Virus record (IMG/VR): IMGVR_UViG_3300046837_000396
Coordinates: 1-64,000 of that record
Strand: one strand, 5' to 3'
Origin: a virus
Lineage: Duplodnaviria > Caudoviricetes
Length of the DNA: 64,000 nt
Below are positions 6,796-49,066 of the stretch, piece after piece. The stretch's first letter is position 1; every line of letters starts with the position of its first letter. A program made the position numbers and the translations under genes. Below the pieces are notes generated by a model. The model saw nothing but the letters and a program-made list of their open reading frames with translations. It had not been told where the DNA came from and searched no databases.

Positions 6796-7094
6796 GACGC
6801 TCTCCCGAGAATCTCGCGGAGTTCCGCGTTCCTCGCGTGCTGACGCGCTACCGCGCCCTGTTGAATCGCCCAGCCGATCCGGGACTGGATCGCGCTCATC
6901 TGGGCCCAGCGGAAGTCTCGAACCTCGGAAGGCTCGTGCCCGACGAGTCGGTTACCGGCCCGGTAGGCAGCCTCGACGGCCCTGTAGAGCGGCTTCGGGT
7001 CCGCGCCGTCCGCGACCGCGTGAAGGAGACGCGAAGCCTTTCGGCGAGCCGCCTCGAACGCCTTGATTCGTTTCTCGATAGTGTCGTCGGTCAT
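6792..7094 (-). CDS. hypothetical early protein (leaderless)
   Basis: ATG 6 nt after TAGTAT. Confidence 0.7.
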   Translation of the reverse strand: MTDDTIEKRIKAFEAARRKASRLLHAVADGADPKPLYRAVEAAYRAGNRLVGHEPSEVRDFRWAQMSAIQSRIGWAIQQGAVARQHARNAELREILGRAS

Positions 7095-7912
7095 GATCCA
7101 ATACTAGCGTGTCTAGACACGGTGTCTAGACAATTCGTCGCCTCCAGGACAGCTTCCCGAAGCCTACACCGGAGCTGGACCTCGATCTGCCGGATTCGTT
7201 CCCGCGAGACCCCGAGCTGCGCCCCGAGCTCCCGGAGCGTCATGGGATCCTCCGCGAGGCAACGAGCGTCGAAGATCACCCGATCCCGCGGCCCGAGTGA
7301 CCTGCGGAAGCGCCTGATGGCCTCCCGGCCTAGCTGGAGCCGTTCCTGATCCCCCAGCGCGTCCTCGGGGCTCCCGGACGGGTTCTCGAGGCAGTCACCA
7401 AACGTCACGCCCTCGAGGCCATTGCGGGCCGGACCTTCGGTCGAGATCGACCGGGTCGCGAGCAGCGGCAGGAGTGCGCGGGCCCGCCCGATCGGCATCC
7501 GGGCCGCCTCCGACATCTCGTCGGGCGATTGGCTCTTGGTCTTCCGCCACCACCTGAGCGCGGCCCGCTCCCGAGCGCTCTGACCGATCCGGACGCACCG
7601 GTGAAGCCGGAAGACCGCGTCCTGAACCTTCGAGCTACAGGCGGTTGTCGCGTAGGTCGAGAACCGGATCCCGCGGGCCGGGTCGAACGACTCGAGCGCG
7701 ATCAGGATTCCCTCAACCGCATGCTGGACGAGGTCGTCGACCGGGATCCCGAAGAACCGGTACCGGCGAGCCGTCAGGGACGCGACCCAAAGGTGCCGGC
7801 GTACGAGCTCGTCGCGCGCACTCCTATCCCGCTGGTTTAGTTTCCTGAAGAGTTCCTGCTCCTGCTTGCGCGTCAGCGGTTCTGTCGTCCCGTACAGGTA
7901 TTGGGGGCTCAT
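7091..7912 (-). CDS. RNA polymerase sigma-70 family factor, RpoH/SigB-like
   Basis: Region 2 (DDLVQ...FDPARGIRFSTYA) and region 4 (TLRELGAQLGVSRERIRQIE). Confidence 0.92.
   Translation of the reverse strand: MSPQYLYGTTEPLTRKQEQELFRKLNQRDRSARDELVRRHLWVASLTARRYRFFGIPVDDLVQHAVEGILIALESFDPARGIRFSTYATTACSSKVQDAVFRLHRCVRIGQSARERAALRWWRKTKSQSPDEMSEAARMPIGRARALLPLLATRSISTEGPARNGLEGVTFGDCLENPSGSPEDALGDQERLQLGREAIRRFRRSLGPRDRVIFDARCLAEDPMTLRELGAQLGVSRERIRQIEVQLRCRLREAVLEATNCLDTVSRHASIGS
7101..7137 (-). promoter_or_regulatory. promoter with tandem operator, copy 3 (inside the sigma gene 3' end)
   Basis: Boxes at 7109-7120 and 7122-7133. Confidence 0.8.
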
Positions 7913-9078: not shown

Positions 9079-9242
9079 AGCAGCTCAACCGCGGTCCTGC
9101 GGCGCGCGTAAAACTTGGCCGACAGAACAGTGTTCGCGACCGTGCGGTTCAGCCGGTCCACGAGCAGCTCCGCGTCAGCCTGCCGGTTCATGAGCGCGAA
9201 GGACCGCTCTTGTCCTTCGCGCTTTACGTCCCAGCGTTCCAT
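9042..9242 (-). CDS. hypothetical protein
   Basis: 66 aa; coupled. Confidence 0.6.
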   Translation of the reverse strand: MERWDVKREGQERSFALMNRQADAELLVDRLNRTVANTVLSAKFYARRRTAVELLRQIVEIGRGGK

Positions 9243-10231
9243 CAGGCGGCCTTCGCCATCTCGAGCGCGATCGTGAGGGCGCGGTCGTTCTGATTCGCGG
9301 CGCTGCCGAACCAGAGGTTGTCGAGACGACGCGAGCGATCTTTCCCGCGTCCGTACGCGAGGTACTCGGTCAGGGCGTTGTAGGCGGCCCAGTAGGTGCC
9401 GGCGACCCCCGGGAGCTGGTTGCCGCGTCCTTGCTCGAAGAGCCGAACGACCTTCGGGAGCGTGATCTTGGAGGCCCCCGGAAGTTCTTGACCGGTCGCC
9501 GGCGAGAGAACCCGGCGGACCAGCAGCTCGAGGGACGGGCGGTCGATCTGTCGGCTCGCGAGGAACCGGTACCGCTCCGCCGTCGCTTCGAAGGTTCGGT
9601 CCGCGAGGTTGATCGCGTCACGGGCCGCCACGACCGCTTCCTTCACCTTCCGGGTGTGGTGGATCTTCAGGAGCGTCTTGCGCGCGTCGCCGGCTCCGTG
9701 CGCGAGCGCGAGCGTGTTCGCGCACACGACCTGGATGGGCGTGAACCCGACCCTGACCGCGACCTTCCCGTCGTGGCTGTTCGAGAGCAGCAGGTACTTC
9801 AGGACCTCGTCACCCGGCACCACGACCGACGGATCGCGGTTGATGCGGGCGAGCGCCCAGATCCGTTCGCCATCCCGGAGTGATCCCGCGGTTTCGAGAA
9901 CGGCATCGCCGGAGGCGAGGAAGGGATCGAAGAACGCGAACGCGTCGCGGTTCTGGAGCGGGTGCGTGCCAGGGCCCACGACCCCGAGGATTCGGCCGTC
10001 CGTGGTTCGGTAGTTGGCGAGCGCCGGAACCTTCTGGTCGATAATCGAATCCCGGCCATCGTCCATCGGACCAGCCTCGCGAACCGTCCAGAGTTCCTTC
10101 TGCCCGACCTCCCAGTCGAGACCAGCCGCCACGATCGCCTCGCGGGTCGTCGGGGCGCTCTCGAGCCGAACCCCGAGCCCGTGCCAGGGCGTCTCGCCCA
10201 CGTAAAACATCGATTCAACTTCGTGACTCAT
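9242..10231 (-). CDS. DUF932 / TIGR03299-family phage-plasmid protein
   Basis: MSHEVESMFYVGETPWHGLG, LSNSHDG, VVCANTL, GTYWAAYNALTEY. Confidence 0.9.
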   Translation of the reverse strand: MSHEVESMFYVGETPWHGLGVRLESAPTTREAIVAAGLDWEVGQKELWTVREAGPMDDGRDSIIDQKVPALANYRTTDGRILGVVGPGTHPLQNRDAFAFFDPFLASGDAVLETAGSLRDGERIWALARINRDPSVVVPGDEVLKYLLLSNSHDGKVAVRVGFTPIQVVCANTLALAHGAGDARKTLLKIHHTRKVKEAVVAARDAINLADRTFEATAERYRFLASRQIDRPSLELLVRRVLSPATGQELPGASKITLPKVVRLFEQGRGNQLPGVAGTYWAAYNALTEYLAYGRGKDRSRRLDNLWFGSAANQNDRALTIALEMAKAA

Positions 10232-18690: not shown

Positions 18691-18945
18691 CTATACCTCC
18701 TGACCGCGCCGCGCGGCGCGGTGGATAAGGGTCGCGACTACGGCCTTCCGCGCGGCCGACCGGGTAGGAGCGGCGATCAAGAGGAGCGGGCGGGAGCCGT
18801 CCGGCATGATGGGGCGGCACGCGACCGCCTCGAGCAGCCGCTGCGGCACCATCGCGTCAGGGTCCGAGGTAAAGTGGCCGTACTGGAAGCGCGGTAGGCC
18901 GGCCTTCCGCATGATTCTTCTGTGGCGACGTCGACGGGGGTTCAT
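18691..18945 (-). CDS. hypothetical protein (leaderless)
   Basis: GCGCCATC 7 nt upstream. Confidence 0.5.
   Translation of the reverse strand: MNPRRRRHRRIMRKAGLPRFQYGHFTSDPDAMVPQRLLEAVACRPIMPDGSRPLLLIAAPTRSAARKAVVATLIHRAARRGQEV
18703..18722. repeat. GC palindrome, copy 4
   Basis: 20/20; read as HRAARRG. Confidence 0.95.
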
Positions 18946-19775
18946 AGGTTCGGATGGCGCACCAGGATCTCGCGGGCCGGTTCCCGCTTGGTTCCGGATG
19001 CGGCGATCGAACGCCGGGCCACGATTGGGTCGATCCGGTAGCGCCGGTAAAGGTGGCGGGCCTCGGGGGTATCGGAGTTCGACAACAGGACGGTCGCGCC
19101 GGCGCGCGCGCAGCGGTCGAAGGTCGCGGCGAGTTCTTCTTGGTCGGCGGGCCCGAACCCATCGGGGCAGAACCCGACGTAGTTGGCGGTCGCGGAAGTC
19201 GGCACGTAGGGTGGATCCAGGTACACGAGGTCCCCGGGCCCGACCTGCTTGAGGGTTTCGGCGTAGTGTTGATTCGTAATCGACACGCCCTGGAGCGCTT
19301 TTGAGACCTCCCGGAGGTTCGGCGCGTCGACGATGCTGGGTGTCTTTTGCTTCCCGTACGGGACGTTGAACTGGCCCTTTTGGTTCACCCGATAGAGCCC
19401 GTTGAAGCAGAGCCGGTTCAGGTAGATGGTTCGGGCCGCGCGATCCGCGACCGTCATACCGGCAGTCGCGACGTCGATCGCCCTGACGTGTTCATACTCG
19501 ACCCGCGAGGTCTTGAACGAAAGCAGCCGGAGCGACACGACGAGTTCGTCGACGTGATCCCGGATCGCGACCCAGCAGTCCGCGACGTCAGAATTCAGGT
19601 CACCGAGGAAGGTCCTCCCACCGATTCGGTCGCCCGGTGAGAGCGCGAGAAAGACGGCACCACCTCCGAGGAACGGCTCGTAGTAGTCCCGATACCCGGG
19701 CGAGAACCGAGCGAGGATCTCGGGCACTAGTGCCCGCTTTCCGCCGGCCCACTTTAGGAACGGATGGGGAACCAA
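18942..19775 (-). CDS. dam: Dam-family DNA adenine methyltransferase
   Basis: FLKWAGGK, EPFLGGGAVF, FNGLYRVN, DPPY. Confidence 0.93.
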   Translation of the reverse strand: MVPHPFLKWAGGKRALVPEILARFSPGYRDYYEPFLGGGAVFLALSPGDRIGGRTFLGDLNSDVADCWVAIRDHVDELVVSLRLLSFKTSRVEYEHVRAIDVATAGMTVADRAARTIYLNRLCFNGLYRVNQKGQFNVPYGKQKTPSIVDAPNLREVSKALQGVSITNQHYAETLKQVGPGDLVYLDPPYVPTSATANYVGFCPDGFGPADQEELAATFDRCARAGATVLLSNSDTPEARHLYRRYRIDPIVARRSIAASGTKREPAREILVRHPNL

Positions 19776-27211: not shown

Positions 27212-27244
27212 AGGGTAGCGTGTCTAGACACGTTGTCTAGACAC
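27212..27244 (-). promoter_or_regulatory. promoter with tandem operator, copy 5
   Basis: Boxes at 27220-27231 and 27233-27244; -10 TACCCT; leadered, with AGGAG SD before the helicase. Confidence 0.75.
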
Positions 27245-27809
27245 TTAATCCCGCATCGATATCTATCTGAGGGATTACGTAGATGTTACCCGCACCTCCG
27301 GCCTTCCGGGCCGCCTGAAGTTGGTCATACGCAACGTCCTTTTCAAACGGTCCCGCGACGGATTCGTCGTACGCGATCCAGTAGGTCGCTTCCTGAAGGC
27401 CCCCGATATGACCGGACGTCCCAAACGGCAAGATCCGTCGATCTGGTCGATAGATGTTCCCGAACACGACGGCCCGAACGCCGGCGTTGAGCGCGAGGCG
27501 GAAGCAGGGCCAACACGGGAACGCGGTCGTGAATAGAGCCGAGCCCTCAATCCGAACGCCGTGTTTGGCGGCCTGACAGATCGCGTTCGCCTCGGCGTGG
27601 ACGGTCCGGACGCAGTGCCCGTCCTCCATGTCGTGCCCGGCATCGTCGCAATGCGGTTCGCCGACGACGCTACCGTTGTAGCCGGTCGCCAGGATATTGT
27701 GACCCCGGACGATCACGGCCCCGACGTGAAGTCGGTCGCAGGTCGCGCGCTTCGAAACCTCTCGCGCGATCCCCATAAAGTACTCGGCCCAACCCGGACG
27801 CTTCCCCAT
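27237..27809 (-). CDS. dCMP deaminase
   Basis: RATCDRLHVGAVI, TGYNG, HAEANAI, PCWPC. Confidence 0.93.
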   Translation of the reverse strand: MGKRPGWAEYFMGIAREVSKRATCDRLHVGAVIVRGHNILATGYNGSVVGEPHCDDAGHDMEDGHCVRTVHAEANAICQAAKHGVRIEGSALFTTAFPCWPCFRLALNAGVRAVVFGNIYRPDRRILPFGTSGHIGGLQEATYWIAYDESVAGPFEKDVAYDQLQAARKAGGAGNIYVIPQIDIDAGLSV

Positions 27810-27820
27810 CTCGTTTCCTT

Positions 27821-28039
27821 TCAGCCGAACGCGGCTGGCTCGACGAATACGTCGATGCTGTGCCCGATCTCGTTCCCGACGTGATGCGCGACCCTGATGA
27901 CGAACCAAGCCGATTCCCCGCCGTCCCGAGAGAGCGTCACGACCTCCCCGAGCGCCGGAACCGACCACAGCCCCCACTCGCCGATCACTTCGGTTGGTTG
28001 CCCAAAGGGTGCGTGAAGGAACGTCGCGCAGAACGTCAC
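27821..28039 (-). CDS. hypothetical protein
   Basis: GTGA coupling; GGAGG SD. Confidence 0.55.
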   Translation of the reverse strand: MTFCATFLHAPFGQPTEVIGEWGLWSVPALGEVVTLSRDGGESAWFVIRVAHHVGNEIGHSIDVFVEPAAFG

Positions 28040-29648: not shown

Positions 29649-31355
29649 CTATCGGGTCATGATGTTGGTTCCGGCGGGACCGACTCCGGGTGCGTCCGGG
29701 ATCCCGAACTTCTTCGCGATCTCGTGCGCGATGAAGAGCGACATCAGGACGTCCCCCGTGTGCTTGGACGGCACGTAGTAGAGACAATCGTCGATCAGCC
29801 GTTGGATGTTAGGATGACAGACTCCGCCGCGGTTCGGGAACGCCCACGCGCCGTTCGCCATCTGGACGAAGATTCCCGGGATCCCGTACTCGGGATGCGC
29901 CTTCGAGCGCCCGGTCGTGTACGGCATGATCGGGAGCGAAACGTTCTGATCGAGCGCCCACTGAAGCAGGAAGTCCTGGCTGGCATTGTTCTCGACCGCC
30001 ACAACGGAGTCGTAGTCACGCTGCTTGCGATGAATCCGTTGAACGATCTCGCGGCCGGCCCAACGACCGTAGTCGACGTCGAGTACGACCCGGTGACCTG
30101 ACTGCCGGACCTCGATCGTCGTGAGGCTTGTGAAGTCGTGCTCCTCGCCGCGCCCGACCGCGAGGTCGACACCCGTGAACGTGTAGGCGTTCCGGCGGTC
30201 CTGAAACTGCGGCCCCCCCGACACCATCGCGTCGATCCCGAAAAGTCTCGCGACTTCCTTACAGCGGTCGACGTACTCGGCTTTACACATCGCCTGCTCG
30301 TCGTCGCGCGGAAGGTTCAGGTACAGCTGATTGAACTGGATGTTCTTCCGAAGGTCCCGCTCGACGCGGTCTTCGTCGTAACGGTCCGGCCAAAGGGTTC
30401 GGCGGCCGGCCGGTTCTTTATCGTTTCCGACAAGCCTAAGGGCGCCTGCCTCGATCGCGGGCCCGTCCCGGGGGGTCGCGTCCCGGAGATCATCAGCCCC
30501 CGGTTTCCCCTCGAGCCCAAAGTCGGTATCGCCGTACACGTACACGTTCCCCAGAACATCCATCCGGAGAGTCGGAAACCCACGCTTCCGGAGCTCGTGT
30601 AGGAGGTCCTCGGGATGGAACGCCGTATTGCAGACCACGATCGTACCGCCCTTTACAAGACGTGAAACGACCGCCGTGAAGAACCACTTGAGCGTCTTCT
30701 GACGCTGCTCCTGCGTCAGCGTGTTCTCGGGCGTCAGGATGTCGTCGACGACGATCCAGTCGAGGCGCGACCCAATGATAGGACCGTCCATCCCGAGCGC
30801 GACGAGCGACGGATCCTTGATGCCGGGTGGTCGTTCGACGACGATCGCGGTCTGGGTCCAGGGGTCGCCGTGCCGGGTCGACGGCATCAGGTGCGGCGCG
30901 ACCGCCCGGAGCCGCCAGCTCCCCTCGATGTAGTCTTTGACGATCCTCAGAACCTTCTCGGCCTGTGTCTGGGTCGCCGATACGACCGCTCCGCGCTGGC
31001 TCTGATCCCGCTGGAGCCGAAAGAGGCCCAGCATCGACATCGTTACGGTTTTGCCGTGGTCCGCCGGGAGCATCACGACCGACAACGGGTGGTGAAGCGC
31101 AAACTCAACCGTGACCTTTTGGTGTGGCGAAACCCGTACGCAATCGAGCGGATTGCGATTATCGAAGAACTTCTGGGTTTCGCCATCGGCCCCCAGACGG
31201 GACTCTTCTTCGGGCTTCATGACGAAGCTGATGAACGAACACGGATCGCGAGACGCCTCGAGCGCGCGGGCCGCTATCTGGGCCCGGACGAGGTTGTACT
31301 GGTCGACCTTCGAGAGGTCCCCGGTTGGATTCTCCACAATCCTATTGGGGCACAC
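29649..31355 (-). CDS. terL: terminase large subunit
   Basis: PADHGKT, GSRLDWIVVDD, TGVDLA...DFT, VENNASQ, HTGDVLMS. Confidence 0.9.
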   Translation of the reverse strand: MCPNRIVENPTGDLSKVDQYNLVRAQIAARALEASRDPCSFISFVMKPEEESRLGADGETQKFFDNRNPLDCVRVSPHQKVTVEFALHHPLSVVMLPADHGKTVTMSMLGLFRLQRDQSQRGAVVSATQTQAEKVLRIVKDYIEGSWRLRAVAPHLMPSTRHGDPWTQTAIVVERPPGIKDPSLVALGMDGPIIGSRLDWIVVDDILTPENTLTQEQRQKTLKWFFTAVVSRLVKGGTIVVCNTAFHPEDLLHELRKRGFPTLRMDVLGNVYVYGDTDFGLEGKPGADDLRDATPRDGPAIEAGALRLVGNDKEPAGRRTLWPDRYDEDRVERDLRKNIQFNQLYLNLPRDDEQAMCKAEYVDRCKEVARLFGIDAMVSGGPQFQDRRNAYTFTGVDLAVGRGEEHDFTSLTTIEVRQSGHRVVLDVDYGRWAGREIVQRIHRKQRDYDSVVAVENNASQDFLLQWALDQNVSLPIMPYTTGRSKAHPEYGIPGIFVQMANGAWAFPNRGGVCHPNIQRLIDDCLYYVPSKHTGDVLMSLFIAHEIAKKFGIPDAPGVGPAGTNIMTR

Positions 31356-31358
31356 GCC

Positions 31359-31931
31359 CTACGGGTGAAGCAACCGCTCGCAGTCCCGAACGACCTGAAC
31401 CAAGTGCGGCCACGAAAGACAACGCCCGCCCCGCCACGCTTGGTTGAACGGCTTATCCCAGACGATCCCGGTGCCGGTGGGATGGGCGGCCACCCACTTC
31501 TCGACGTGCGGATGATGGTCGTCGACCAGATAGTCACCGACCATCCGGAACTTCTTCCGGCAATGATGGACGTCGCCGTGGTGAAACCCGAAGTGATGCA
31601 GGAGCCACTCGTCACGCTCGTGAACCCACGTCGGATTCCCGTGCAGGGGACTCGTCAGAACTTCGACGTCAGCGATCTTCCGGAGTTCCGTGAGACCCTC
31701 GAGCGCTCCCGCGACGGGTTCGATCGTGAGGCAGAAGTCTCGTTCACGAGCCCGTTCCCACGCGAGCTTCTGGACCCGCTCCCACCCCGGGAGGTTTCCA
31801 AATCCCCATTCCGTGATGTCGGCGGGTTCGTATCGGATCCCGGTGTCCCGGTAGACCTGGTCGAGCATCCGCTTATCGAAGTCCGCGAGCGGACCATCGC
31901 AATCAAGTAGGATCAGGGAACGTCGTGACAT
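31359..31931 (-). CDS. HAD 5'(3')-deoxyribonucleotidase
   Basis: LLDCDGPLADF, LTSP, GDYLVDD, PFN. Confidence 0.88.
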   Translation of the reverse strand: MSRRSLILLDCDGPLADFDKRMLDQVYRDTGIRYEPADITEWGFGNLPGWERVQKLAWERARERDFCLTIEPVAGALEGLTELRKIADVEVLTSPLHGNPTWVHERDEWLLHHFGFHHGDVHHCRKKFRMVGDYLVDDHHPHVEKWVAAHPTGTGIVWDKPFNQAWRGGRCLSWPHLVQVVRDCERLLHP

Positions 31932-32244
31932 CTTTCTTCTCTTCTTCCTCATCCGGCAGCGGGACCGCCCACTCACGTTCCCGCCGGACCCGGAGCCGCC
32001 ACAACACCCTACGGCCATGCCGGACCGCCTCAGCCTCGCCAAGCTCCTCGAGAGCCGCGACGAGCTGGCGTAGCATCGCCTCCTGAACGCCTTCCTGGCG
32101 GGCGCGAGCGACGAGCGCGGACCATTCTCGCGCCCGTACCAGGAACCCCACTACCCAACGGGTTCGCTCGACCCAAACCGGGTTCGCCAACGGGTGGACG
32201 ATCTGAGCATCCTCCTGGTGTCGACCTCGCGGAATCAGGGGCAT
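31903..32244 (-). CDS. hypothetical protein
   Basis: 113 aa. Confidence 0.55.
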   Translation of the reverse strand: MPLIPRGRHQEDAQIVHPLANPVWVERTRWVVGFLVRAREWSALVARARQEGVQEAMLRQLVAALEELGEAEAVRHGRRVLWRLRVRREREWAVPLPDEEEEKKDVTTFPDPT

Positions 32245-33715: not shown

Positions 33716-34071
33716 GAGGCACCAAGCGTTCTGGCGGTACGGGCAAAAACTCGTGAGATGATCCCGGTAACGGCCGGCGCGTCGAGTCCGATCGCCTTCC
33801 CGAGCGGGAGCGCCTCCCGGCACATGTGGTTCGTAAGTGCCTGCATTTGGTTCATGAACGCGATCTCGTTTTCCCGCATCGGGACCATGTCGCCTTCCCG
33901 GACCAACAGGACGTTCCCGTCCTCGAATTCAACGCATTCCTCCGATATCGGGCCGGTCGACCCCACGTAGGTCCCGGGGGCCCAGAACTTCTTGACCTTT
34001 CCCCCGACGTTCGCCCCCTGGTGATAGAACCAACCCGCCGAGCCCTCTGCCACTGCCGTAACGTCAGCCAT
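33712..34071 (-). CDS. hypothetical protein
   Basis: 119 aa. Confidence 0.65.
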   Translation of the reverse strand: MADVTAVAEGSAGWFYHQGANVGGKVKKFWAPGTYVGSTGPISEECVEFEDGNVLLVREGDMVPMRENEIAFMNQMQALTNHMCREALPLGKAIGLDAPAVTGIISRVFARTARTLGAS

Positions 34072-34462
34072 CTTCGATCTCCCTTAGCTCGTCGGCCAGG
34101 TCGGCCGCCGGATCTCCTTCGCCCACGACCTCGTCGAGTCCTTCCGGGGTCGGAACACTCCCCCCATCTAACCATTCCCACTCGTGCCCCTCTACGGCCG
34201 CAAGCGCCTCTGGGTCTATGGCCGGATCTCGGCGGTCGAGGTCCCGTTCGGCCCACTCGTACCCTCGGACGTACCCGGACCGGTACGCCTCCTCGGCCAA
34301 CGAGCGCGCGAACTCGATCCATTGCCGACGGGTCGCGCGGCGGTGCGATGTCGCGAAAACTTCGACGATTTGCCCCAACCTGGACGGCGCCTCGGGCCCC
34401 TCGTAGTAGGTCCCACGGAGCCGCTGGAATAGATTCCGGAGCAGCCTACTGATCGGCACCAT
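34064..34462 (-). CDS. hypothetical protein
   Basis: 132 aa. Confidence 0.65.
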   Translation of the reverse strand: MVPISRLLRNLFQRLRGTYYEGPEAPSRLGQIVEVFATSHRRATRRQWIEFARSLAEEAYRSGYVRGYEWAERDLDRRDPAIDPEALAAVEGHEWEWLDGGSVPTPEGLDEVVGEGDPAADLADELREIEDG

Positions 34463-35126
34463 CGGCAGGCGAGGCTCCCTTCGGGGCGGCTCGCTCTTTT
34501 GACTCCCGCTTCGCGCCCTTCCGGATCATCTCCTGGACGACATCACCGGTCCGCTTTTGCGTCAGCTTCGAGCGCTCGACGAGCCACTCCTTCACCTGGT
34601 CCCGGACCTCGATATCGCCGAACTCAAGGCTCAGCGTAACGGAGCGCCCGAACGTCGCGGGTTTCGGGTCGTCGAGCGCCGGTGGCGCGACCGTCTTGAG
34701 GGCCCGCTCGATCTCCTTCGCCGAAAACCCGAGTTCCTCGAACCGGAATCCCTCCGGGAAGTCTTCTGACTCGAACAGCTGTCCGAGCTTGTCTTGATCG
34801 AACTCCCCACCGATCCGGTTCAGCCGGAGATTCAGCCGCTTGGCGGTCGCGTCGTCGCAATCGAGAATGAAGCACGTTGCCTTCGGGTTCTTCACCCCCT
34901 GCTCGTGCTCGACCTCTACGAACGCGTTGAGGCGCTGATGCCCCCCGATGATCATGTTGTTCGACTTCTGGACCACGATGGGTTCGACGAGCCCGTGCTC
35001 GCGAATCGAGTCCTTCAGGAGCTCAAAGTCGTCCGCCGATATCTTGCGCGGATTGTAGGGGGCCGGAACGAGCAAACTCGCCGGCAACAACTTGATCTCA
35101 AACTTCTTCTCCTGCTTTTCCATCAT
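34446..35126 (-). CDS. ParB N-terminal (ParB/Srx-like) domain protein
   Basis: PAPYNPRKI...SIREHGLVEPIVV...IIGGHQR. Confidence 0.9.
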   Translation of the reverse strand: MMEKQEKKFEIKLLPASLLVPAPYNPRKISADDFELLKDSIREHGLVEPIVVQKSNNMIIGGHQRLNAFVEVEHEQGVKNPKATCFILDCDDATAKRLNLRLNRIGGEFDQDKLGQLFESEDFPEGFRFEELGFSAKEIERALKTVAPPALDDPKPATFGRSVTLSLEFGDIEVRDQVKEWLVERSKLTQKRTGDVVQEMIRKGAKRESKERAAPKGASPADGADQ

Positions 35127-36091
35127 GCTTTCCCAAGCCTCTTTCGGAAGTCGTCCACTACGGTCTGGATCCCCTCCCGTAGCGGCACTGTCGGGCGGAA
35201 CCCTAGGACTGATGACGCAAGCGAGATATCGGGTCTCCTGATCTTCGGGTCGTCTGTCGGGAGGGCTTCCGTTACGGTCCTGAACGGTGCTCCGGTTTCT
35301 TCCGAAACGATTGCCGCCAATTCCTCGATCGTAAACTCACCCGGGTTTCCCAGATTGGCGATAAAGGGACCGCCTGGCATGCGCGGATGCGTCGCCATTC
35401 TCCACAACCCATCGACGAGGTCGGAGCAGTGACAGAACGAACGCGTCTGGGTTCCGTCGCCATAGACGGTCAGGGGCTTTCCCAAGAGCGCCTGAAGGAC
35501 GAAGTTCGAAACAACCCGCCCGTCATTCAGGGCCATCCGGGGGCCGTACGTGTTGAAGATTCTCGCGATCCGGACGTCGATTCCCCACATCACGGATGCG
35601 TCACGCAGAAGCGTCTCGGCGGCCCGCTTCCCCTCGTCGTAACAGGACCGCGGTCCGACTGGATTCACGTTCCCCCAGTACGACTCCCGCTGAGGATGAA
35701 CGAGTGGGTCCCCGTAGACTTCGGACGTCGACGCGTGGATGACCCGGCATCCAGTTGTGCGCGCCGCGCTTGCGGCTTCTGAGGCCCCCAGCACGCACGT
35801 CATCAGAGTCCCGTACGGATCCGCCTGGTAGTGAACCGGGCTAGCTGGGCACGCGAGGTTGAATAAAAAGTCGAGAAACCTGGAACCGAACAATTGCCAA
35901 AACGACGGCGGAAGGTTTCGTACGTCCCCCCGTACGAAACGAAACTGCCCGCTTTTTTCGGCAGCCTCGAGGTTCCGTTCACTTCCCGTCATGAGGTTGT
36001 CTATCCCGACGACCTCGAGCCCCTCCGCGAGCAGTCGGTCGCAAAGATGAGACCCCAGAAACCCGGCCGCACCGGTGACGATCGCCCTCAT
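35123..36091 (-). CDS. uxs: UDP-glucuronate decarboxylase (UDP-xylose synthase)
   Basis: TGAAGFLGSHLCDRL, LACPASPVHYQ, ASTSEVYGDP, YWGNVNPVGPRSCYDEGKR, RIFNTYGPRM. Confidence 0.93.
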   Translation of the reverse strand: MRAIVTGAAGFLGSHLCDRLLAEGLEVVGIDNLMTGSERNLEAAEKSGQFRFVRGDVRNLPPSFWQLFGSRFLDFLFNLACPASPVHYQADPYGTLMTCVLGASEAASAARTTGCRVIHASTSEVYGDPLVHPQRESYWGNVNPVGPRSCYDEGKRAAETLLRDASVMWGIDVRIARIFNTYGPRMALNDGRVVSNFVLQALLGKPLTVYGDGTQTRSFCHCSDLVDGLWRMATHPRMPGGPFIANLGNPGEFTIEELAAIVSEETGAPFRTVTEALPTDDPKIRRPDISLASSVLGFRPTVPLREGIQTVVDDFRKRLGKA

Positions 36092-36987
36092 CGGGCCCTC
36101 GGTTTCGCTCGTCCTTCGATCATCTTCCGAACCTCCGGCGACTTCGGCGCTTTCGACTGAATGAGCTCGAATCCGAGCTCATCGACCGCCGGGAGCGTCG
36201 CACGATCGATTCCTGGCTTCAGCTTCAGGGCCGTATCAAACCCTTTCCAGGCCCCCTTGATGACGTGTTGGGGGCGCTGAAACCGGCGCTTCGTCTCGAC
36301 GATCCCGGGCCAAGCCTTCTCGAGCGACCTCGCCATCCGGAGGCGACCGTCCCCCTGATAGAGCTCCGCGGTGTTGCCGCCCTTCATCGTCATGGTCGTC
36401 ATCTTCCAGACGAGGAACGCGTTGAACAGAACCGTGCACCACCCGCCGCTCAGGACCTGAAGGCAAAGGTCGGTGTCTTCGTTGTATCGACCCCTCCACC
36501 GGTACGGGAGATCGTTCCGGATCAAGAGGCACGAATACACCCGGACGTTGAGATAGAACGGCGGCTGAACCGTGCGGTTCGCGCTGAACATGAAGTAGTT
36601 GAGGCCCGCGATCGCGACGTTCTGGTATCGGTCGACGAATCGCTCACAGGTCGCGAGCGCGGGCCCGGAGCTACACGGGATCTTGCGAGCCTTCCAACGC
36701 CTGTAGGTACCCGAGATGTTGTCGTCGAGAATCCAGTGGCGTTCGGCCCCCGTAGCGGCCGAGTGCTCCCAGACGAAGTTCCGCGCCGGGATCCCGCCCT
36801 TTCCGAGATTGCTAAACGGTGTCTCGAGAATCTCTTCTGCGGTAGCGCCGTGCTTCAGGTAAAGGTCCCGCTCCTGCGGCTCGACGACGAGTCTGAACGG
36901 TACCCCATCTCGCCTGAGGAACCGGGCCGTCATGCATCGCTCGGCCCGCCCCTTCGAGATCACGTACACCGGGTAAAGGGGGTTCAC
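36088..36987 (-). CDS. GREB1/JGT/TAGT-like GT-A glycosyltransferase
   Basis: YPVYVISKGR, VVEPQE, ARNFVWEHS, HWILDDNI, YSCLLI, RWRGRYNEDTDL, MKGGNT. Confidence 0.85.
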   Translation of the reverse strand: MNPLYPVYVISKGRAERCMTARFLRRDGVPFRLVVEPQERDLYLKHGATAEEILETPFSNLGKGGIPARNFVWEHSAATGAERHWILDDNISGTYRRWKARKIPCSSGPALATCERFVDRYQNVAIAGLNYFMFSANRTVQPPFYLNVRVYSCLLIRNDLPYRWRGRYNEDTDLCLQVLSGGWCTVLFNAFLVWKMTTMTMKGGNTAELYQGDGRLRMARSLEKAWPGIVETKRRFQRPQHVIKGAWKGFDTALKLKPGIDRATLPAVDELGFELIQSKAPKSPEVRKMIEGRAKPRAR

Positions 36988-37682
36988 GTCTCGAACCTCA
37001 GCCCCCCGACGTCCTCATTCTCGACGGAGGGCCAGCGAGCCCCCCAGGTCCCGTGGACCTTCTTCGCAATCCGAAGTTCGGCTTTGCGAACGAACTCGTC
37101 GCGGTCCGCTTCGGACGCGAACGACACGACGAGCTTCACTTGGCGTTCTCCCTGGTCGTACTCGGGCATCCCGACCCACTCGGCCGCGGCATCGAACGTC
37201 GCGACCTCGGACGTCGGACGCGTTACCATCAGGAGCCCCGCCAACATCTGGTCGTCGAACCCGGTGCCGAGCAGGCCGAGTTCGTCCTCGTTCTTCACCT
37301 GACGGAGCAGCTCCGTCAGCGCGCGGTCGTCCGACTCCGCGAACCTCCCGAGCTCGTTGTCGGCCGTCATGACCTTGAGGGCAGCGGGCGAATCGGGGTC
37401 GATATCGAGCCGAAACACCGGTACCTGGTCGAGCCCGAGCTTGCGTGCCGCTTCCGCGATGCCGTGACCGGCCAGGATCGTCCCGTCCCGCGCCACCACG
37501 ACCCGTCTGTAGATCCCGTACCGGCCGATCGACGCCGCGATGTGGTCGACCTGCTCCTGTGGATGCGATCGATAGTTCTTCGGGTGGGGCTTCAGCTCCG
37601 CGAGCGCCCAGTTCTCTTCGAACGACTGAACCGCATCCTTTTTCTTACCCTTCGCTACCGGGCGAACCTTGCTGGGGGGCAT
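36984..37682 (-). CDS. ParB-N domain fused to the small GT-associated domain
   Basis: LKPHPKNYRSH...ILAGHG...ADN; C-terminal EWVGMPEY...VVSF...DEF...W.P. Confidence 0.85.
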   Translation of the reverse strand: MPPSKVRPVAKGKKKDAVQSFEENWALAELKPHPKNYRSHPQEQVDHIAASIGRYGIYRRVVVARDGTILAGHGIAEAARKLGLDQVPVFRLDIDPDSPAALKVMTADNELGRFAESDDRALTELLRQVKNEDELGLLGTGFDDQMLAGLLMVTRPTSEVATFDAAAEWVGMPEYDQGERQVKLVVSFASEADRDEFVRKAELRIAKKVHGTWGARWPSVENEDVGGLRFET

Positions 37683-38191
37683 GTCAGGAGCTGAATGGCG
37701 CCGAACCAAACAGGAACTCGCTTGCCGTAATCGACGCCGCGACGACGAAGCAGGCGTGGGTTCCACCGACTCGGTTCCAACCCTCCTCCACCGATCGTTA
37801 CGAACCCACCTCCCGCGTAATCGCTCGGCACCATTACTCGCCAAGCTTCACGATTCCTTCGGAACCACAACATCGGGACTCGCCCCATCTCGTCGGCAGC
37901 CCTCTGGCACTGGCGCCACCATCCCCAAACCGGACTGGGTCGGCCCGACCGAAACGTTGACTCAGCCCACCCTTCGCGGTGCTTCACCTCGACGCAAAAC
38001 GGAAAGTGCTTCGCAGACGTCATGATGTCACCGGACGCCTCAAACTCGCCGCGCGACTTCGCGTTCCCCCAACCGCCGCTCCCGGGCGAGCGAACGAAGA
38101 TACAACCAGGCTCGACCTGCCCCCACCAGTCTCCGAACGTGCGGCAGACGTCGAGTTCCGCCTTCGCACCTTTTGAGCGGGAATCGATCAC
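37655..38191 (-). CDS. Holliday junction resolvase (PD-(D/E)xK)
   Basis: SRSKGAKAE...RSPGSGG...GDI...CVEVKHRE. Confidence 0.85.
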   Translation of the reverse strand: MIDSRSKGAKAELDVCRTFGDWWGQVEPGCIFVRSPGSGGWGNAKSRGEFEASGDIMTSAKHFPFCVEVKHREGWAESTFRSGRPSPVWGWWRQCQRAADEMGRVPMLWFRRNREAWRVMVPSDYAGGGFVTIGGGGLEPSRWNPRLLRRRGVDYGKRVPVWFGAIQLLTCPPARFAR

Positions 38192-48244: not shown

Positions 48245-48931
48245 TCAGGCCGCCATCCGTTCGATGTCCGAAACCGTGCAGCCGATATTGATCAGCGCTT
48301 GGTTGATCATTCTGGTCGCGATCGGTCCGTCGATTCCGGCGAACAGCTTCCCCGCGACCTCCCGCACCGATCCACCCGTCGCTACAAGGGCCTCGAGGAT
48401 CGAGCGATCGAACGTCGTTCTGCACCGGGCCAGTATGGCGCGAACCTCCGCAACCCGTTCTTGGATCGGTTCCGCGACGACCATGTCGGCGGGATCGAAT
48501 CCCCCTTCATCGACACCCCGCATCGACGAAAACGGGACCGCGTACCGCGATGGGTTCTTGTCGCGCGTGCCGTGCTTGTTGCACTGGCGGGCGCGGTGGG
48601 CTTCCGCTTTGCCGACAACTCCCGCCCCATAAAGTAAAAACCGCCCGATCGAAACACCACGCGAAGGATCGAATTCGGCGAACTTCTGCCAGACCGCCAC
48701 CGCCATCTCTTGCTCGACGTCCTCGGCACCCGTGGGGGCCTTCCAGCGCCGTAGAATCCAGGCCGCTTTTGCCGCCAACACGGGACGCGTTTGCTTGTAA
48801 AAACACTCGAACGTAATTCGGCCGTCTAGACAAGCTTGAGCTAATTCCTCGAACGAACCGCCGACCGGCGTGATGGTTTTGAGAGCTCGGTCGAGCGCTA
48901 CCCGCGCCCCGGGTTCGTACCGTCTCCTCAT
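48245..48931 (-). CDS. divergent sigma-70-like factor
   Basis: AEDVEQEMAVAVWQKFAEFDPSRG region 2; SVREVA HTH. Confidence 0.7.
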   Translation of the reverse strand: MRRRYEPGARVALDRALKTITPVGGSFEELAQACLDGRITFECFYKQTRPVLAAKAAWILRRWKAPTGAEDVEQEMAVAVWQKFAEFDPSRGVSIGRFLLYGAGVVGKAEAHRARQCNKHGTRDKNPSRYAVPFSSMRGVDEGGFDPADMVVAEPIQERVAEVRAILARCRTTFDRSILEALVATGGSVREVAGKLFAGIDGPIATRMINQALINIGCTVSDIERMAA

Positions 48932-49066
48932 GACAATGCGCCTACATTGTTCACGTGATCCTCTTTCTCCGGACAATCGTCCTAGGTAAAAAACTCTAGG
49001 ACCAAAAGTCCCAGTGCGCCAAGCATGACGCGCCCTGTACCTATGTAAGTCTCGCGACTTTCCCCT

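What the first reader, a model, noticed from the sequence alone, without database searches (positions are those of the whole stretch)
34446..37682. Putative DNA xylosylation cassette: ParB-N + base-J-type glycosyltransferase + UDP-xylose synthase + ParB-N
Seen: four translationally coupled genes (4-bp stop/start overlaps), with an intact UDP-glucuronate decarboxylase directly after a GREB1/JGT/TAGT-like GT, lying between the replication module and the terminase genes. Known: JGT glucosylates hmU to form base J; phage relatives cluster with ParB-N proteins in predicted DNA-modification loci; UXS makes UDP-xylose from UDP-GlcA. Glucosylated and arabinosylated phage pyrimidines are described; I know of no xylosylated DNA base. 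Inference: the phage makes its own pentose donor to build xylosyl-hydroxymethylpyrimidine (a xylo analogue of base J) as an anti-restriction/anti-CRISPR shield, possibly coupled to packaging. Alternatives are virion protein glycosylation or a different pentose product.
Basis: partly seen in the sequence, partly recalled or inferred. Interest (0 to 1): 0.9.

Follow-up and report, generated by a model that had tools for sequence, protein, structure and literature searches.

The report
Phage DNA-sugar cassette making its own xylose
A complete 96-kb phage genome carries a small acquired gene set (a DNA-clamp-like adaptor, a DNA-type sugar transferase and an enzyme that makes UDP-xylose) that most likely decorates the phage DNA with a pentose, yet the phage has no known enzyme to make the hydroxymethyl base such sugars normally attach to.

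Summary
Four minus-strand genes are joined by GTGA/ATGA overlaps: ParB-N protein (36984-37682), TAGT/PF20691 GT-A glycosyltransferase (36088-36987), an intact UDP-xylose synthase (35123-36091) and a second ParB-N protein (34446-35126). They lie between the replication genes and the terminase of a complete 96,181-bp phage.

- The acquired unit is three genes. The downstream ParB is a resident backbone gene. In relatives the same slot holds ParB+Tet_JBP, a C5-methylase, Mom or nothing, so it is a DNA-modification hotspot.
- ParB_up+TAGT is an autonomous mobile pair. It is adjacent in 78 of 80 viral loci, and it is the only thing shared by all five otherwise unrelated (near-)complete phage genomes compared with this one. 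A complex model supports binding (0.79 versus best control 0.00).
- TAGT relatives are fused to DNA polymerases, UDG and ParB. ParB_up relatives are fused to DNA methylases.
- UXS lies beside this TAGT clade in 20 of 80 loci, in three arrangements.
- No Tet_JBP or thymidylate-synthase-family enzyme exists in this genome or in nine other (near-)complete genomes with the pair, so "xylosyl-hydroxymethylpyrimidine" has no acceptor route.

Best reading: ParB-tethered, post-replicative DNA pentosylation on an unknown acceptor. This is a new variant of a known kind.

The parts
36984..37682 (-). ParB_up: a ParB-N (nucleotide-binding-domain-like) adaptor with a conserved C-terminal domain predicted to bind TAGT. 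First gene of the acquired cassette. Its start overlaps the 3' end of the PDDEXK gene by 28 nt.
   Evidence: phrog_620 E 3.5e-29. Adjacent to TAGT in 78 of 80 loci. The N-terminal half is 50-62% identical to the ParB-N of PF01555 DNA-methylase fusions; full-length fusions exist with SAM methyltransferases, TAGT and a PF04488 GT. Complex model: median score 0.79, best control 0.00. The interface residues 163-181 and 216-232 include the invariant W169, G171, P173 and P218. Start codon read.
36088..36987 (-). TAGT-family GT-A glycosyltransferase, the presumed DNA glycosyltransferase. GTG start inside a GTGA overlap with ParB_up.
   Evidence: PF20691 E 1.2e-43; phrog_842. AF2 model mean pLDDT 87.1, with GT-A Foldseek hits COLGALT1, majastridin, LARGE1 and TarP. 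39-sequence alignment: invariant R14, D88-D89-N90, N169-E170-D171, D173 and others. About 40% identity to TAGTs of T4-like Aeromonas phages. Fusions to PolA, PolB, UDG, Bet, ParB, radical SAM and methyltransferases.
35123..36091 (-). UDP-glucuronate decarboxylase (UDP-xylose synthase, UXS), intact. ATGA overlaps on both sides.
   Evidence: Human UXS1 chains, E 1.1e-88 over residues 2-319. The blocks ASTSEVYGDP, CYDEGKR and NDGRVVSNF are identical to the human chain, and ARIFNT-GPRM differs at one position. Pfam Epimerase and GDP_Man_Dehyd. ArnA-type and U4kpxs-type NCBIfam models reach only E 1e-17 to 1e-18, far below their cut-offs. Syntenic with the TAGT clade in 20 of 80 loci.
34446..35126 (-). 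ParB_dn: a ParB-N protein with a conserved two-helix C-terminal domain. It is a resident backbone gene that bounds the variable slot. Whether it takes part in glycosylation is uncertain.
   Evidence: Pfam ParB_N E 1.3e-7, phrog_620 E 6.8e-33. Full-length orthologues (37-46% identity) lie in the synteny SbcC-PDDEXK-[variable]-ParB_dn-g34064 in relatives L187-L194 that lack TAGT and UXS. AF2 model mean pLDDT 87.0. A conserved 'RSVTLSLEF..RD.VK' segment is followed by two helices.
37655..38191 (-). PDDEXK_15 nuclease gene: upstream boundary of the slot (backbone).
   Evidence: PF24608 E 2.1e-28. Conserved next to the slot in L187, L190 and L191.
34064..34462 (-). 132-aa protein of unknown function: a backbone gene that follows ParB_dn and overlaps its end by 17 nt.
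   Evidence: No Pfam or PHROG hit. Orthologues follow ParB_dn in 7 of the 80 ParB_dn loci, one of them L186, the window's own near-copy.
29649..31355 (-). Terminase large subunit: context only. The packaging module starts about 3 kb downstream of the cassette.
   Evidence: phrog_38 E 3.5e-52.

Best explanation
The cassette is a three-gene, horizontally acquired DNA-hypermodification unit (ParB_up, TAGT, UXS). It sits in the DNA-modification hotspot of this phage lineage, between the PDDEXK nuclease gene and a resident ParB-like gene.

Proposed mechanism:
1. UXS decarboxylates host UDP-glucuronate to UDP-xylose. The assignment rests on sequence; the activity is not tested.
2. ParB_up binds TAGT through its conserved C-terminal domain (supported only by a model). 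Its ParB-N domain holds or activates the enzyme on double-stranded DNA. This is inferred by analogy with ParB-dependent phage thymine dioxygenases and with ParB-N-fused DNA methylases.
3. TAGT transfers the pentose to phage DNA after replication and before packaging (inferred).
4. The result would protect the DNA from restriction and CRISPR nucleases (inferred).

The acceptor is not a 5-hydroxymethylpyrimidine made by any recognisable phage enzyme. It is unknown.
For: (1) Gene identities and coupling.

(2) Positional allelism. Relatives with the same backbone order carry different genes in the same slot: ParB_N + Tet_JBP (E 6e-27) + a 412-aa ORF in L190, a C5 DNA methylase (E 1e-62) in L194, Mom (E 1.7e-39) in L193, and no sizeable insert in L191, where only about 195 bp separate the PDDEXK and ParB_dn matches.

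(3) Autonomy of ParB_up+TAGT. Five other (near-)complete phage genomes (GC 48-71%) were compared with this one. The pair, at 49-72% identity, is the only thing that all five share with it. One of them, G001, also shares the terminase and about 14 other genes, most of them beyond the 64-kb window, at 24-42% identity. The pair is adjacent in 78 of 80 loci and detectable in 37 of 80 bacterial or MAG loci.

(4) Fusions. TAGT is fused to PolA (many cases), PolB, 3'-5' exonuclease, UDG, Bet and ParB. ParB_up is fused to N6/N4 DNA methylases, SAM methyltransferases, TAGT and a DXD-type GT.

(5) Complex model. Scores of the three runs were 0.00, 0.80 and 0.79 (median 0.79); the best of 3 controls was 0.00. 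In the tool's calibration this mark was reached by 58 of 80 solved complexes and by 2 of 110 mismatched pairs. Partner pLDDT was at least 60, and agreement between runs was at least 0%. The interface falls on the invariant residues of ParB_up.

(6) UXS linkage. 20 of 80 loci hold UXS, in three arrangements, and the label needs at least 4 changes on the TAGT tree. No other SDR was found near the module by tblastn with the window's UXS at E<1e-5. UXS-grade genes occur in only 10 of 50,697 phage records.

(7) Precedent in print. Family members glycosylate DNA: T2/T6 TAGT (PMC13216743, passages) and GT-A phage GTs on 5hmC, several of them strictly dependent on an adjacent SDR 'epimerase' (bioRxiv 10.1101/2023.12.21.572611, passages). 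ParB activates a phage 5mYOX on dsDNA (PMC13229309, abstract and sections 5, 12 and 13).

(8) TerL, from four Pfam family sets, lies within 3 kb downstream of TAGT in 41 of 62 loci that have enough flank. This fits a late function that acts before packaging.
Against: - No biochemical datum exists for this clade.
- Every characterised relative needs a hydroxyl acceptor (5hmC, glucosyl-5hmC, 5hmU), and none can be made here by a known enzyme.
- The catalytic motif reads DDN and EDT rather than the published DDD and EDY/F.
- Very close TAGTs lack UXS. L002 is 72% identical and its complete genome G001 has no UXS. L050 and L051 are sisters of the UXS-positive L039. No residue separates UXS-positive from UXS-negative enzymes: position 71 is F or W in both groups. 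Xylose specificity is therefore unproven.
- One of the three complex runs scored 0.00.
- The genome encodes no UDP-glucose dehydrogenase (Pfam tallies), so the donor pathway depends on an unknown host.
- UXS occurs in other phages without TAGT.
Confidence: 0.5

Rival explanations
1. TAGT xylosylates 5-hydroxymethyl- (or 5-hydroxy-) pyrimidine in DNA. That base would be made by an unrecognised phage enzyme, for example a highly divergent dioxygenase or a nucleotide-level hydroxymethylase working with the phage dCMP deaminase and dNMP kinase, or by the host.
For: All characterised TAGT/GT-A DNA glycosyltransferases and JGT use such acceptors. The genome encodes a dCMP deaminase, a DNMK-type dNMP kinase and a 5'(3')-deoxyribonucleotidase-like protein. 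The 2026 PNAS paper notes thousands of 5mYOX-profile contigs that lack the Pfam annotation. Many ORFs here have no family.
Against: Six-frame searches find no PF12851, PF00303 or PF00145 match at E<=1 in the complete genome. 0 of 50 related records exceed the cut-off for PF12851, and 0 of 50 match PF00303, including 9 records at least 90% complete. 0 of 5 bacterial genomes carrying prophage copies match PF12851. The tool found a genuine phage 5mYOX at E 7e-29. Of the five unrelated (near-)complete genomes that carry the pair, all five share nothing with this genome except the pair, so no third conserved partner exists. The two largest unassigned replication-module ORFs look like HTH/DUF3102-like and gp32-like proteins, not dioxygenases; these are weak leads.
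Confidence: 0.15
2. The target is not DNA. TAGT with UDP-xylose glycosylates a protein (a virion protein, ParB itself or a host factor) or another molecule. ParB_up would be only a scaffold or a substrate.
For: No acceptor base is available. The module usually abuts the packaging and structural genes. The best PDB fold matches are protein or glycan GT-A enzymes: COLGALT1, LARGE1 and TarP. From my own recall, not from any call: virion glycosylation by phage and giant-virus glycosyltransferases is known.
Against: The slot holds DNA base modifiers in relatives. TAGT is fused to DNA polymerases, UDG and Bet, and ParB_up to DNA methylases. Family members with known activity act on DNA. No structural gene co-varies with the pair.
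Confidence: 0.15
3. TAGT does glycosylate DNA, but UXS is not its donor supplier. UXS would be an auxiliary metabolic gene that reshapes host UDP-sugar pools (draining UDP-GlcA, or inhibiting capsule or LPS modification), while TAGT uses a common host donor such as UDP-glucose.
For: Closely related TAGTs work without any UXS in their genome. No specificity-determining substitution was found. UXS occurs in 10 deposited phage records without TAGT.
Against: UXS is translationally coupled on both sides inside the cassette. It is beside this TAGT clade in 20 of 80 loci, in three arrangements with at least 4 gains or losses, against 10 of 50,697 phage records overall. It is the only nucleotide-sugar enzyme type found next to the module. 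Published SDR+GT pairs are functionally dependent.
Confidence: 0.15

Closest known systems
TAGT (PF20691) DNA glycosyltransferases: T2/T6 beta-glucosyl-HMC-alpha-glucosyltransferase and the metavirome GT-A enzymes that glycosylate 5hmC
   Same: Same Pfam family, far above the cut-off. GT-A fold. About 40% identity to TAGTs of T4-like Aeromonas phages. Phage-encoded, in a DNA-metabolism context.
   Different: The known members sit with a dCMP hydroxymethylase or with C5-methylase+TET, which make the acceptor. Here neither exists. This clade has an invariant DDN/NEDTD motif instead of the published DDD/EDY-F. It is obligately paired with a ParB-N protein. The donor enzyme beside it is UXS.
ParB-dependent phage thymine dioxygenases (5mYOX+ParB; PMC13229309)
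   Same: A small ParB-N protein with an essential C-terminal domain and no HTH, encoded next to the DNA-modifying enzyme it serves. A relative of this very phage (L190) carries ParB+Tet_JBP in the same slot.
   Different: The partner here is a glycosyltransferase, not a dioxygenase. The L190 ParB is only 35% identical to ParB_up and lacks the AAEWVGMP motif that the model puts at the TAGT interface. No ParB-dependent glycosyltransferase turned up in my searches of the literature.
Subclass II phage 'epimerase + GT' pairs on 5hmC (bioRxiv 10.1101/2023.12.21.572611)
   Same: An SDR nucleotide-sugar enzyme next to a DNA GT, with GT activity dependent on the SDR. The products there include hexose, HexNAc and hexuronic acid.
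   Different: The SDR here is a decarboxylase that yields a pentose donor. The words pentose and xylose do not occur in that paper (0 occurrences). Those pathways include a methylase and a TET.
Pentose-modified cytosines: arabinosyl in RB69-like phages and the 'deoxypentose, putatively xylose' of Shewanella phage Thanatos (PMC6024577 from the listing only; PMC12838424 and PMC13390438 from passages)
   Same: A pentose on phage DNA, with the phage making its own activated pentose.
   Different: Those are T4-like phages that use a thymidylate-synthase-superfamily 5-hydroxy-dCMP synthase, a pyrophosphorylase route to the donor and other transferases. No ParB, no TAGT pairing and no UXS is reported in the passages I read.
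Base J pathway (JBP1/2 + JGT) of kinetoplastids
   Same: It works like it in principle: a GT-A enzyme of the JGT/TAGT kind puts a sugar on a DNA base.
   Different: There is no JBP/TET-type hydroxylase. The sugar donor is probably UDP-xylose rather than UDP-glucose. JGT itself was not compared here, because no solved structure is in the library.

Membership tests
TAGT (Pfam PF20691) | Match to the family HMM above the gathering score | tested here: met
   149.9 bits against a cut-off of 27.5, residues 5-204 on profile positions 1-205 of 205
TAGT (Pfam PF20691) | GT-A fold | tested here: met
   AF2 model with mean pLDDT 87.1. Foldseek hits to GT-A enzymes at E 7.5e-6 to 1e-4, with modest TM-scores of 0.36-0.46.
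TAGT (Pfam PF20691) | Published active-site motifs R...DDD...EDY/F of phage GT-A DNA glycosyltransferases | tested here: inconclusive
   Invariant R14, D88-D89-N90 and E170-D171 followed by T172 in 39 sequences. The third and last positions differ from the motif quoted. No direct alignment to the published enzymes was made.
TAGT (Pfam PF20691) | Association with an enzyme that makes the acceptor (TET/JBP, or a ThyA-family hydroxymethylase or hydroxylase) | tested here: not met
   No match in the complete genome. 0 of 50 related records exceed the cut-off. Positive control found.
TAGT (Pfam PF20691) | Transfers sugar to DNA | not testable with these tools
   Indirect evidence only: fusions and the slot context.
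UDP-glucuronate decarboxylase (UXS, extended SDR) | Full-length similarity to characterised UXS, clearly above other SDR classes | tested here: met
   Human UXS1 chains at E 1.1e-88; the next class is at 2e-43.
UDP-glucuronate decarboxylase (UXS, extended SDR) | NAD-binding glycine motif and the catalytic S/T...Y-x-x-x-K with the UXS-typical Glu (motif names recalled by me) | tested here: met
   The blocks TGAAGFLGSH, ASTSEVYGDP and CYDEGKR align with the human chain; the last two are identical to it.
UDP-glucuronate decarboxylase (UXS, extended SDR) | Curated equivalog model | tested here: inconclusive
   No NCBIfam model reached its cut-off. The ArnA-type and UDP-4-keto-pentose/UDP-xylose synthase models scored 65 and 63 bits against cut-offs of 777 and 294. 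No UXS equivalog appeared among the hits.
ParB-type activator of a DNA-modifying enzyme (as defined for 5mYOX-associated ParB) | ParB-N nucleotide-binding-domain homology | tested here: met
   phrog_620 E 3.5e-29. Homologues carry PF02195. Pfam itself gave no hit for ParB_up at E<=0.01.
ParB-type activator of a DNA-modifying enzyme (as defined for 5mYOX-associated ParB) | Conserved C-terminal domain needed for partner function; no HTH DNA-binding domain | tested here: met
   The conserved CTD carries the invariant W169, G171, P173 and P218 and forms the modelled interface. No HTH_ParB hit. Function is not tested.
ParB-type activator of a DNA-modifying enzyme (as defined for 5mYOX-associated ParB) | The cognate partner is a 5mYOX | tested here: not met
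   The partner is TAGT in 78 of 80 loci. There is no 5mYOX in the genome.
Chromosome/plasmid partition ParB (ParABS) | HTH parS-binding domain and a ParA partner | tested here: not met
   Neither ParB has an HTH_ParB or ParB_C domain. No ParA-type family appears in the Pfam tallies of the other 90 ORFs or.
Base J pathway | JBP-type thymine hydroxylase together with JGT | tested here: not met
   No PF12851 match.

The most novel reading that the evidence does not exclude
The ParB_up-TAGT pair is a self-sufficient, mobile, one-step DNA glycosylation machine. It would put a sugar (here xylose, made on site by UXS) directly on a canonical DNA base or another native DNA position, with no prior methylation or hydroxylation. 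That would be a new chemical class of DNA modification, present in at least 596 viral contigs and in prophages of cultured bacteria.
Probability: 0.25. Interest if true: 0.92.

Novelty: new variant of a known kind. Interest (0 to 1): 0.72.

Why it matters
Sugar-modified phage DNA defeats restriction enzymes and CRISPR nucleases, and it has supplied tools for epigenetic sequencing. All known routes first build a hydroxylated pyrimidine.

This cassette, and the large family of ParB-TAGT pairs it belongs to, appear to work without that step. In a quarter of the cases examined they bring their own UDP-xylose synthase.

If the prediction holds, it would give three things:
- a pentosylated (xylosyl) DNA base made through the UXS route;
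- the first glycosyltransferase shown to depend on a ParB-like activator;
- possibly a glycosyltransferase that accepts unmodified DNA.

Only three genes are involved, so it is directly testable in E. coli. The slot comparison also shows a phage-genome hotspot where TET, C5-methylase, Mom and glycosylation systems replace one another.

Tried and rejected
- Cryptic hydroxymethylase. Six-frame family searches of the whole genome for PF12851, PF00145 and PF00303 found nothing. Pfam scans covered 114 ORFs. ORFs under 75 aa were not scanned. TerL, the NT5C-like ORF, g33443 and g33712 were scanned with PHROGs only (the NT5C-like ORF also with NCBIfam). The two largest unassigned replication-module ORFs gave only weak HTH/DUF3102-like and gp32-like leads in the Atlas.

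- A weak Tet_JBP-like match in G036, the genome that holds L074 (15.3 bits, below the cut-off). It is a PF13640 2OG oxygenase about 10 kb from the module. I did not take it as a 5mYOX.

- A donor-specificity residue separating UXS-positive from UXS-negative TAGTs. Inspection of alignment A3 found none: position 71 is F in the window, the L011 clade and L039, but also in the UXS-negative L050, and it is W in the UXS-positive L069 and L074. Rejected.

- 'Four-gene cassette' and 'ParB_dn is the DNA-binding partner of ParB_up'. I first favoured this because tandem ParB-N-ParB-N proteins precede TAGT in 33 of 80 loci, and 37 of 80 hold two or more ParB-N domains near TAGT. However, ParB_dn orthologues sit in relatives without TAGT, so it is backbone and its involvement stays open. 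The C-terminal ribbon-helix-helix idea is only a pattern that I recalled. The monomer model shows an extended segment plus two helices, and no fold search was run on it.

- Isolated phages with the module. The best TAGT hits in the 50,697 deposited phage records are no more than 42.6% identical. The two Vibrio phages I inspected have a 389-aa TAGT with no annotated ParB upstream.

- The careful TAGT tree did not finish. The quick tree was used, with SH-aLRT support only. 72 of 81 rows were used, and rows with stops or under 240 aa were dropped.

- In my notes I first counted 22-23 UXS-positive loci. The scripted count is 20 of 80.

- Supplementary files were not opened. Dataset S10 of PMC13229309 and Tables S1/S4 of the 2023 preprint may already list ParB-GT contigs that lack a 5mYOX.

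- 'Not in print' rests on searches only.

Full report
**What the window is.** The window is the first 64 kb of a single-contig virus record of 96,181 bp. It has a 127-bp direct terminal repeat, 64% G+C and a completeness estimate of 100%. Nearly all genes are on the minus strand. The region of the finding lies between two modules. Upstream is a replication/recombination module: PDDEXK_15 nuclease, SbcC-like, Metallophos/SbcD-like, RecA-like, family-B polymerase and DnaB. Downstream is the large terminase at 29649-31355.

**Observation.** One search gives four consecutive minus-strand ORFs. The junctions read GTGA, ATGA and ATGA, so the 4-bp overlaps are real.
- The upstream ORF most likely starts at the ATG at 37682, which overlaps the PDDEXK gene by 28 nt.
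- The second gene is a TAGT (PF20691, E 1.2e-43; phrog_842).
- The third gene matches human UDP-glucuronate decarboxylase over its whole length at E 1e-88. The next SDR class is at 2e-43, and the blocks around the catalytic residues are conserved. ArnA-type and U4kpxs-type models score far below their cut-offs.
- Both flanking proteins are ParB-N proteins by PHROGs (E 3.5e-29 and 6.8e-33). Pfam sees ParB_N only in the downstream one.

**ParB_up+TAGT is an autonomous mobile pair.** A scan of IMG/VR found at least 596 loci encoding relatives of the TAGT, and the best 80 (55-99% identity) were kept.
- ParB_up homologues lie directly upstream of TAGT in 78 of the 80. The remaining two have TAGT at a contig end.
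- Five other (near-)complete phage genomes that carry the pair have G+C from 48 to 71%. The pair (ParB 49-51%, TAGT 58-72% identity) is the only thing all five share with this genome. One of them, G001, also shares the terminase and about 14 other genes, most of them in the part of the genome beyond the 64-kb window, at 24-42% identity.
- The pair also occurs in bacterial and MAG contigs. ParB is detectable upstream of TAGT in 37 of 80 such loci, including prophage regions of cultured Pantoea, Erwinia, Pseudescherichia and Chryseobacterium strains.
- A complex model of TAGT with ParB_up scored 0.00, 0.80 and 0.79 in three runs (median 0.79). The best of three controls scored 0.00. Partner pLDDT was at least 60, and agreement between runs was at least 0%. 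In the tool's calibration this mark was reached by 58 of 80 solved complexes and by 2 of 110 mismatched pairs. The model supports binding but does not show it.
- The modelled interface uses ParB_up residues 163-181 and 216-232. These include four of the eight invariant columns of the ParB_up alignment: W169, G171, P173 and P218.

**Evidence that the target is DNA.**
- Longer relatives of TAGT are fused to family-A DNA polymerases (many cases), family-B polymerase, 3'-5' exonuclease, UDG-superfamily domains, Bet, ParB, radical-SAM domains and SAM methyltransferases. Some are tandem TAGTs.
- Longer relatives of ParB_up are fused to N6/N4 DNA methylases (50-62% identity over the ParB-N half), to SAM methyltransferases, to TAGT itself and to a DXD-type glycosyltransferase domain.
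- The strongest evidence is positional. A profile search with ParB_dn found distant relatives of this phage with the same backbone order RecA-SbcD-SbcC-PDDEXK-[slot]-ParB_dn-g34064. The slot holds ParB_N + Tet_JBP (E 6e-27, above the cut-off) + a 412-aa ORF in L190, a C5 cytosine methylase in L194, a Mom-family protein in L193, and no sizeable insert in L191, where only about 195 bp separate the two flanking matches. The slot is therefore a DNA-modification hotspot. In this phage it holds ParB_up-TAGT-UXS.
- This also shows that ParB_dn (34446-35126) belongs to the backbone, not to the acquired cassette. Its role in glycosylation is open. On one side, tandem ParB-N-ParB-N proteins precede TAGT in 33 of 80 loci, and 37 of 80 hold two or more ParB-N domains near TAGT. 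On the other, ParB_dn orthologues exist without TAGT.

**UXS linkage.** A UXS at least 45% identical to the window's lies near TAGT in 20 of 80 loci. There are three arrangements:
- UXS, then a tandem ParB, then TAGT (16 loci);
- UXS, then ParB, then TAGT (L039, L074);
- ParB, then TAGT, then UXS (L001, L069, and the window).

On a quick TAGT tree the UXS label needs 5 changes, and well-supported branches force at least 4. No other SDR was detected beside the module by tblastn with the window's UXS at E<1e-5. UXS-grade matches occur in only 10 of 50,697 deposited phage records, and none of those records has a TAGT match. The four low-GC UXSs are 58-69% identical to one another, whereas the window's UXS is 47-53% identical to them. 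A separate capture is therefore possible but not shown.

Against strict xylose specificity:
- The closest TAGT outside the near-identical L001 (L002, 72% identity) lies in a complete genome that has no UXS.
- The sisters of L039 and L069 lack UXS.
- I found no discriminating residue.

Because the same enzyme recurs rather than a variety of sugar enzymes, I infer that UDP-xylose may be the cognate donor of the clade, with phages carrying UXS where the host lacks it. This is inference only.

**The acceptor problem.**
- The complete genome has no Tet_JBP, C5-methylase or thymidylate-synthase-family match at E<=1 in six-frame searches.
- Pfam scans of 114 ORFs add a Dam-type methylase, a dCMP deaminase, a DNMK kinase, GNAT, UvrD, RNase T, HNH, DUF932, sigma factors and Mu F. 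They show no oxygenase and no UDP-glucose dehydrogenase.
- Of 50 related records searched (50 of the 80; the 30 shorter ones were left out), 0 exceed the Tet_JBP cut-off. One has a 15-bit match that turns out to be a PF13640 oxygenase. 0 match PF00303. Nine of the 50 records are at least 90% complete.
- Five bacterial genomes with prophage copies have no Tet_JBP match.
- The same tool found the 5mYOX of relative G056 at E 7e-29, so the negative results are meaningful.

Either a wholly unrecognised enzyme or the host supplies it, or this clade uses another nucleophile.

**Comparison with what is known.**
- PF20691 includes the T2/T6 enzyme that glucosylates glucosyl-5hmC. Solitary TAGTs were noted in 288 of 753 phage genomes as potentially novel transferases (PMC13216743, passages).
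- GT-A phage glycosyltransferases add hexose, HexNAc, heptose or hexuronic acid to 5hmC. Several depend strictly on an adjacent SDR 'epimerase'. The words xylose and pentose do not occur in that text (bioRxiv 10.1101/2023.12.21.572611, passages).
- A ParB-like protein activates a subclass of phage thymine dioxygenases on dsDNA, needs both its NBD and CTD, and is specific to its cognate partner. Across the mined 5mYOX pathways, GTs (31%), ParBs (27%) and terminases (19.2%) are the most frequent co-occurring domains (PMC13229309: abstract and sections 5, 12 and 13).
- Pentoses on cytosine are known in RB69-like phages and in Thanatos. There they are built on 5-hydroxy-dCMP made by a thymidylate-synthase-superfamily enzyme and use a pyrophosphorylase route to the donor.
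- My searches found no report of a ParB-dependent glycosyltransferase or of a UXS-coupled DNA glycosyltransferase. Supplements were not seen.

**Verdict.** The cassette is best read as a three-gene, ParB-tethered DNA pentosylation system, a new variant of known phage DNA glycosylation. Its acceptor is unexplained, and that is the most interesting part. The steps shown here are the gene identities, the translational coupling, the synteny statistics, the fusions, the slot allelism and the absence of known acceptor-making enzymes. The steps that remain inferred are UXS activity, the ParB_up-TAGT contact (model only), DNA as the substrate, xylose as the sugar, and the timing of modification before packaging.

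Noticed in passing
L190:2484-5225, L194:4469-5902, L193:4185-4886, L191:5426-6615 (loci of relatives); window 35127-37682: The slot between the PDDEXK nuclease gene and the resident ParB-like gene is a DNA-modification hotspot. It holds ParB+Tet_JBP+a 412-aa unknown, a C5-methylase, Mom, no sizeable insert (L191, about 195 bp between the flanking matches), or, in the window, ParB+TAGT+UXS. The 412-aa ORF after the Tet_JBP gene has no family and may be a hypermodification enzyme.
   Followed up: partly
proteins P0001-P0120: Many TAGT domains are fused to family-A DNA polymerases, some with 3'-5' exonuclease and UDG-superfamily domains. This suggests co-replicative glycosylation in other phages. 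Radical-SAM-TAGT and methyltransferase-TAGT fusions also exist.
   Followed up: no
80 TAGT loci, e.g. L011:8401-9774, L040:9257-10531, L035:9403-11145, L051:7103-8764: The ParB-TAGT pair sits just upstream of the small-ORF/large-terminase pair in 41 of 62 loci with enough flank (28 of them within 700 bp). The terminases belong to four different Pfam family sets, which points to repeated insertion at the same relative position.
   Followed up: partly
L145, L144, L147, L164, L166, L167 (genome contigs): Prophage-like ParB-TAGT pairs (TAGT 41-46% identical, ParB 25-33%) occur in cultured Pantoea stewartii, Erwinia sp., Pseudescherichia vulneris and Chryseobacterium strains. The five whole genomes searched (all but L166) have no Tet_JBP match.
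   Followed up: partly
window 18942-19775 (-), 27237-27977 (-), 31359-32042 (-): The phage also encodes a D12-class Dam methylase (E 3e-54). A probable dCMP deaminase carries an HAE...PCxxC motif; I assigned its coordinates by a recalled motif, and the Pfam tally shows one deaminase among the ORFs. There is a 5'(3')-deoxyribonucleotidase-like protein (phrog_2643, E 2e-6). A DNMK-type dNMP kinase is present somewhere in 1-29 kb, but its coordinates were not pinned.
   Followed up: partly
window 7091-7912 (-) and 48245-48976 (-): There are two sigma-70-like factors, one with regions 2 and 4 and one with region 2 only. This suggests phage-directed transcription programmes.
   Followed up: no
window 9242-10231 (-); L011:2377-3330 and 14 other TAGT loci: A DUF932 protein is encoded in this phage (E 1.8e-48). 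A DUF932 cluster is also present in 15 of the 80 TAGT loci, sometimes next to a SAM-methyltransferase-like gene. Its meaning is unknown.
   Followed up: no
L103:1135-1725 (genome G036, which also holds L074): A 196-aa 2OG-Fe(II) oxygenase (PF13640, E 4e-17) lies about 10 kb from a UXS-ParB-TAGT-TAGT module in a complete 43-kb phage. It is below the cut-off for Tet_JBP.
   Followed up: partly
L050:7240-8885, L074:7989-9723, L038:2047-3791: Some loci carry two consecutive TAGT paralogues after the ParB gene, as in the published 'sequential GT' pathways that build di- and trisaccharides.
   Followed up: no
genome G000 1-127 and 96055-96181: A 127-bp identical direct repeat at both contig ends indicates a complete, circularly assembled or terminally redundant genome.
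   Followed up: yes
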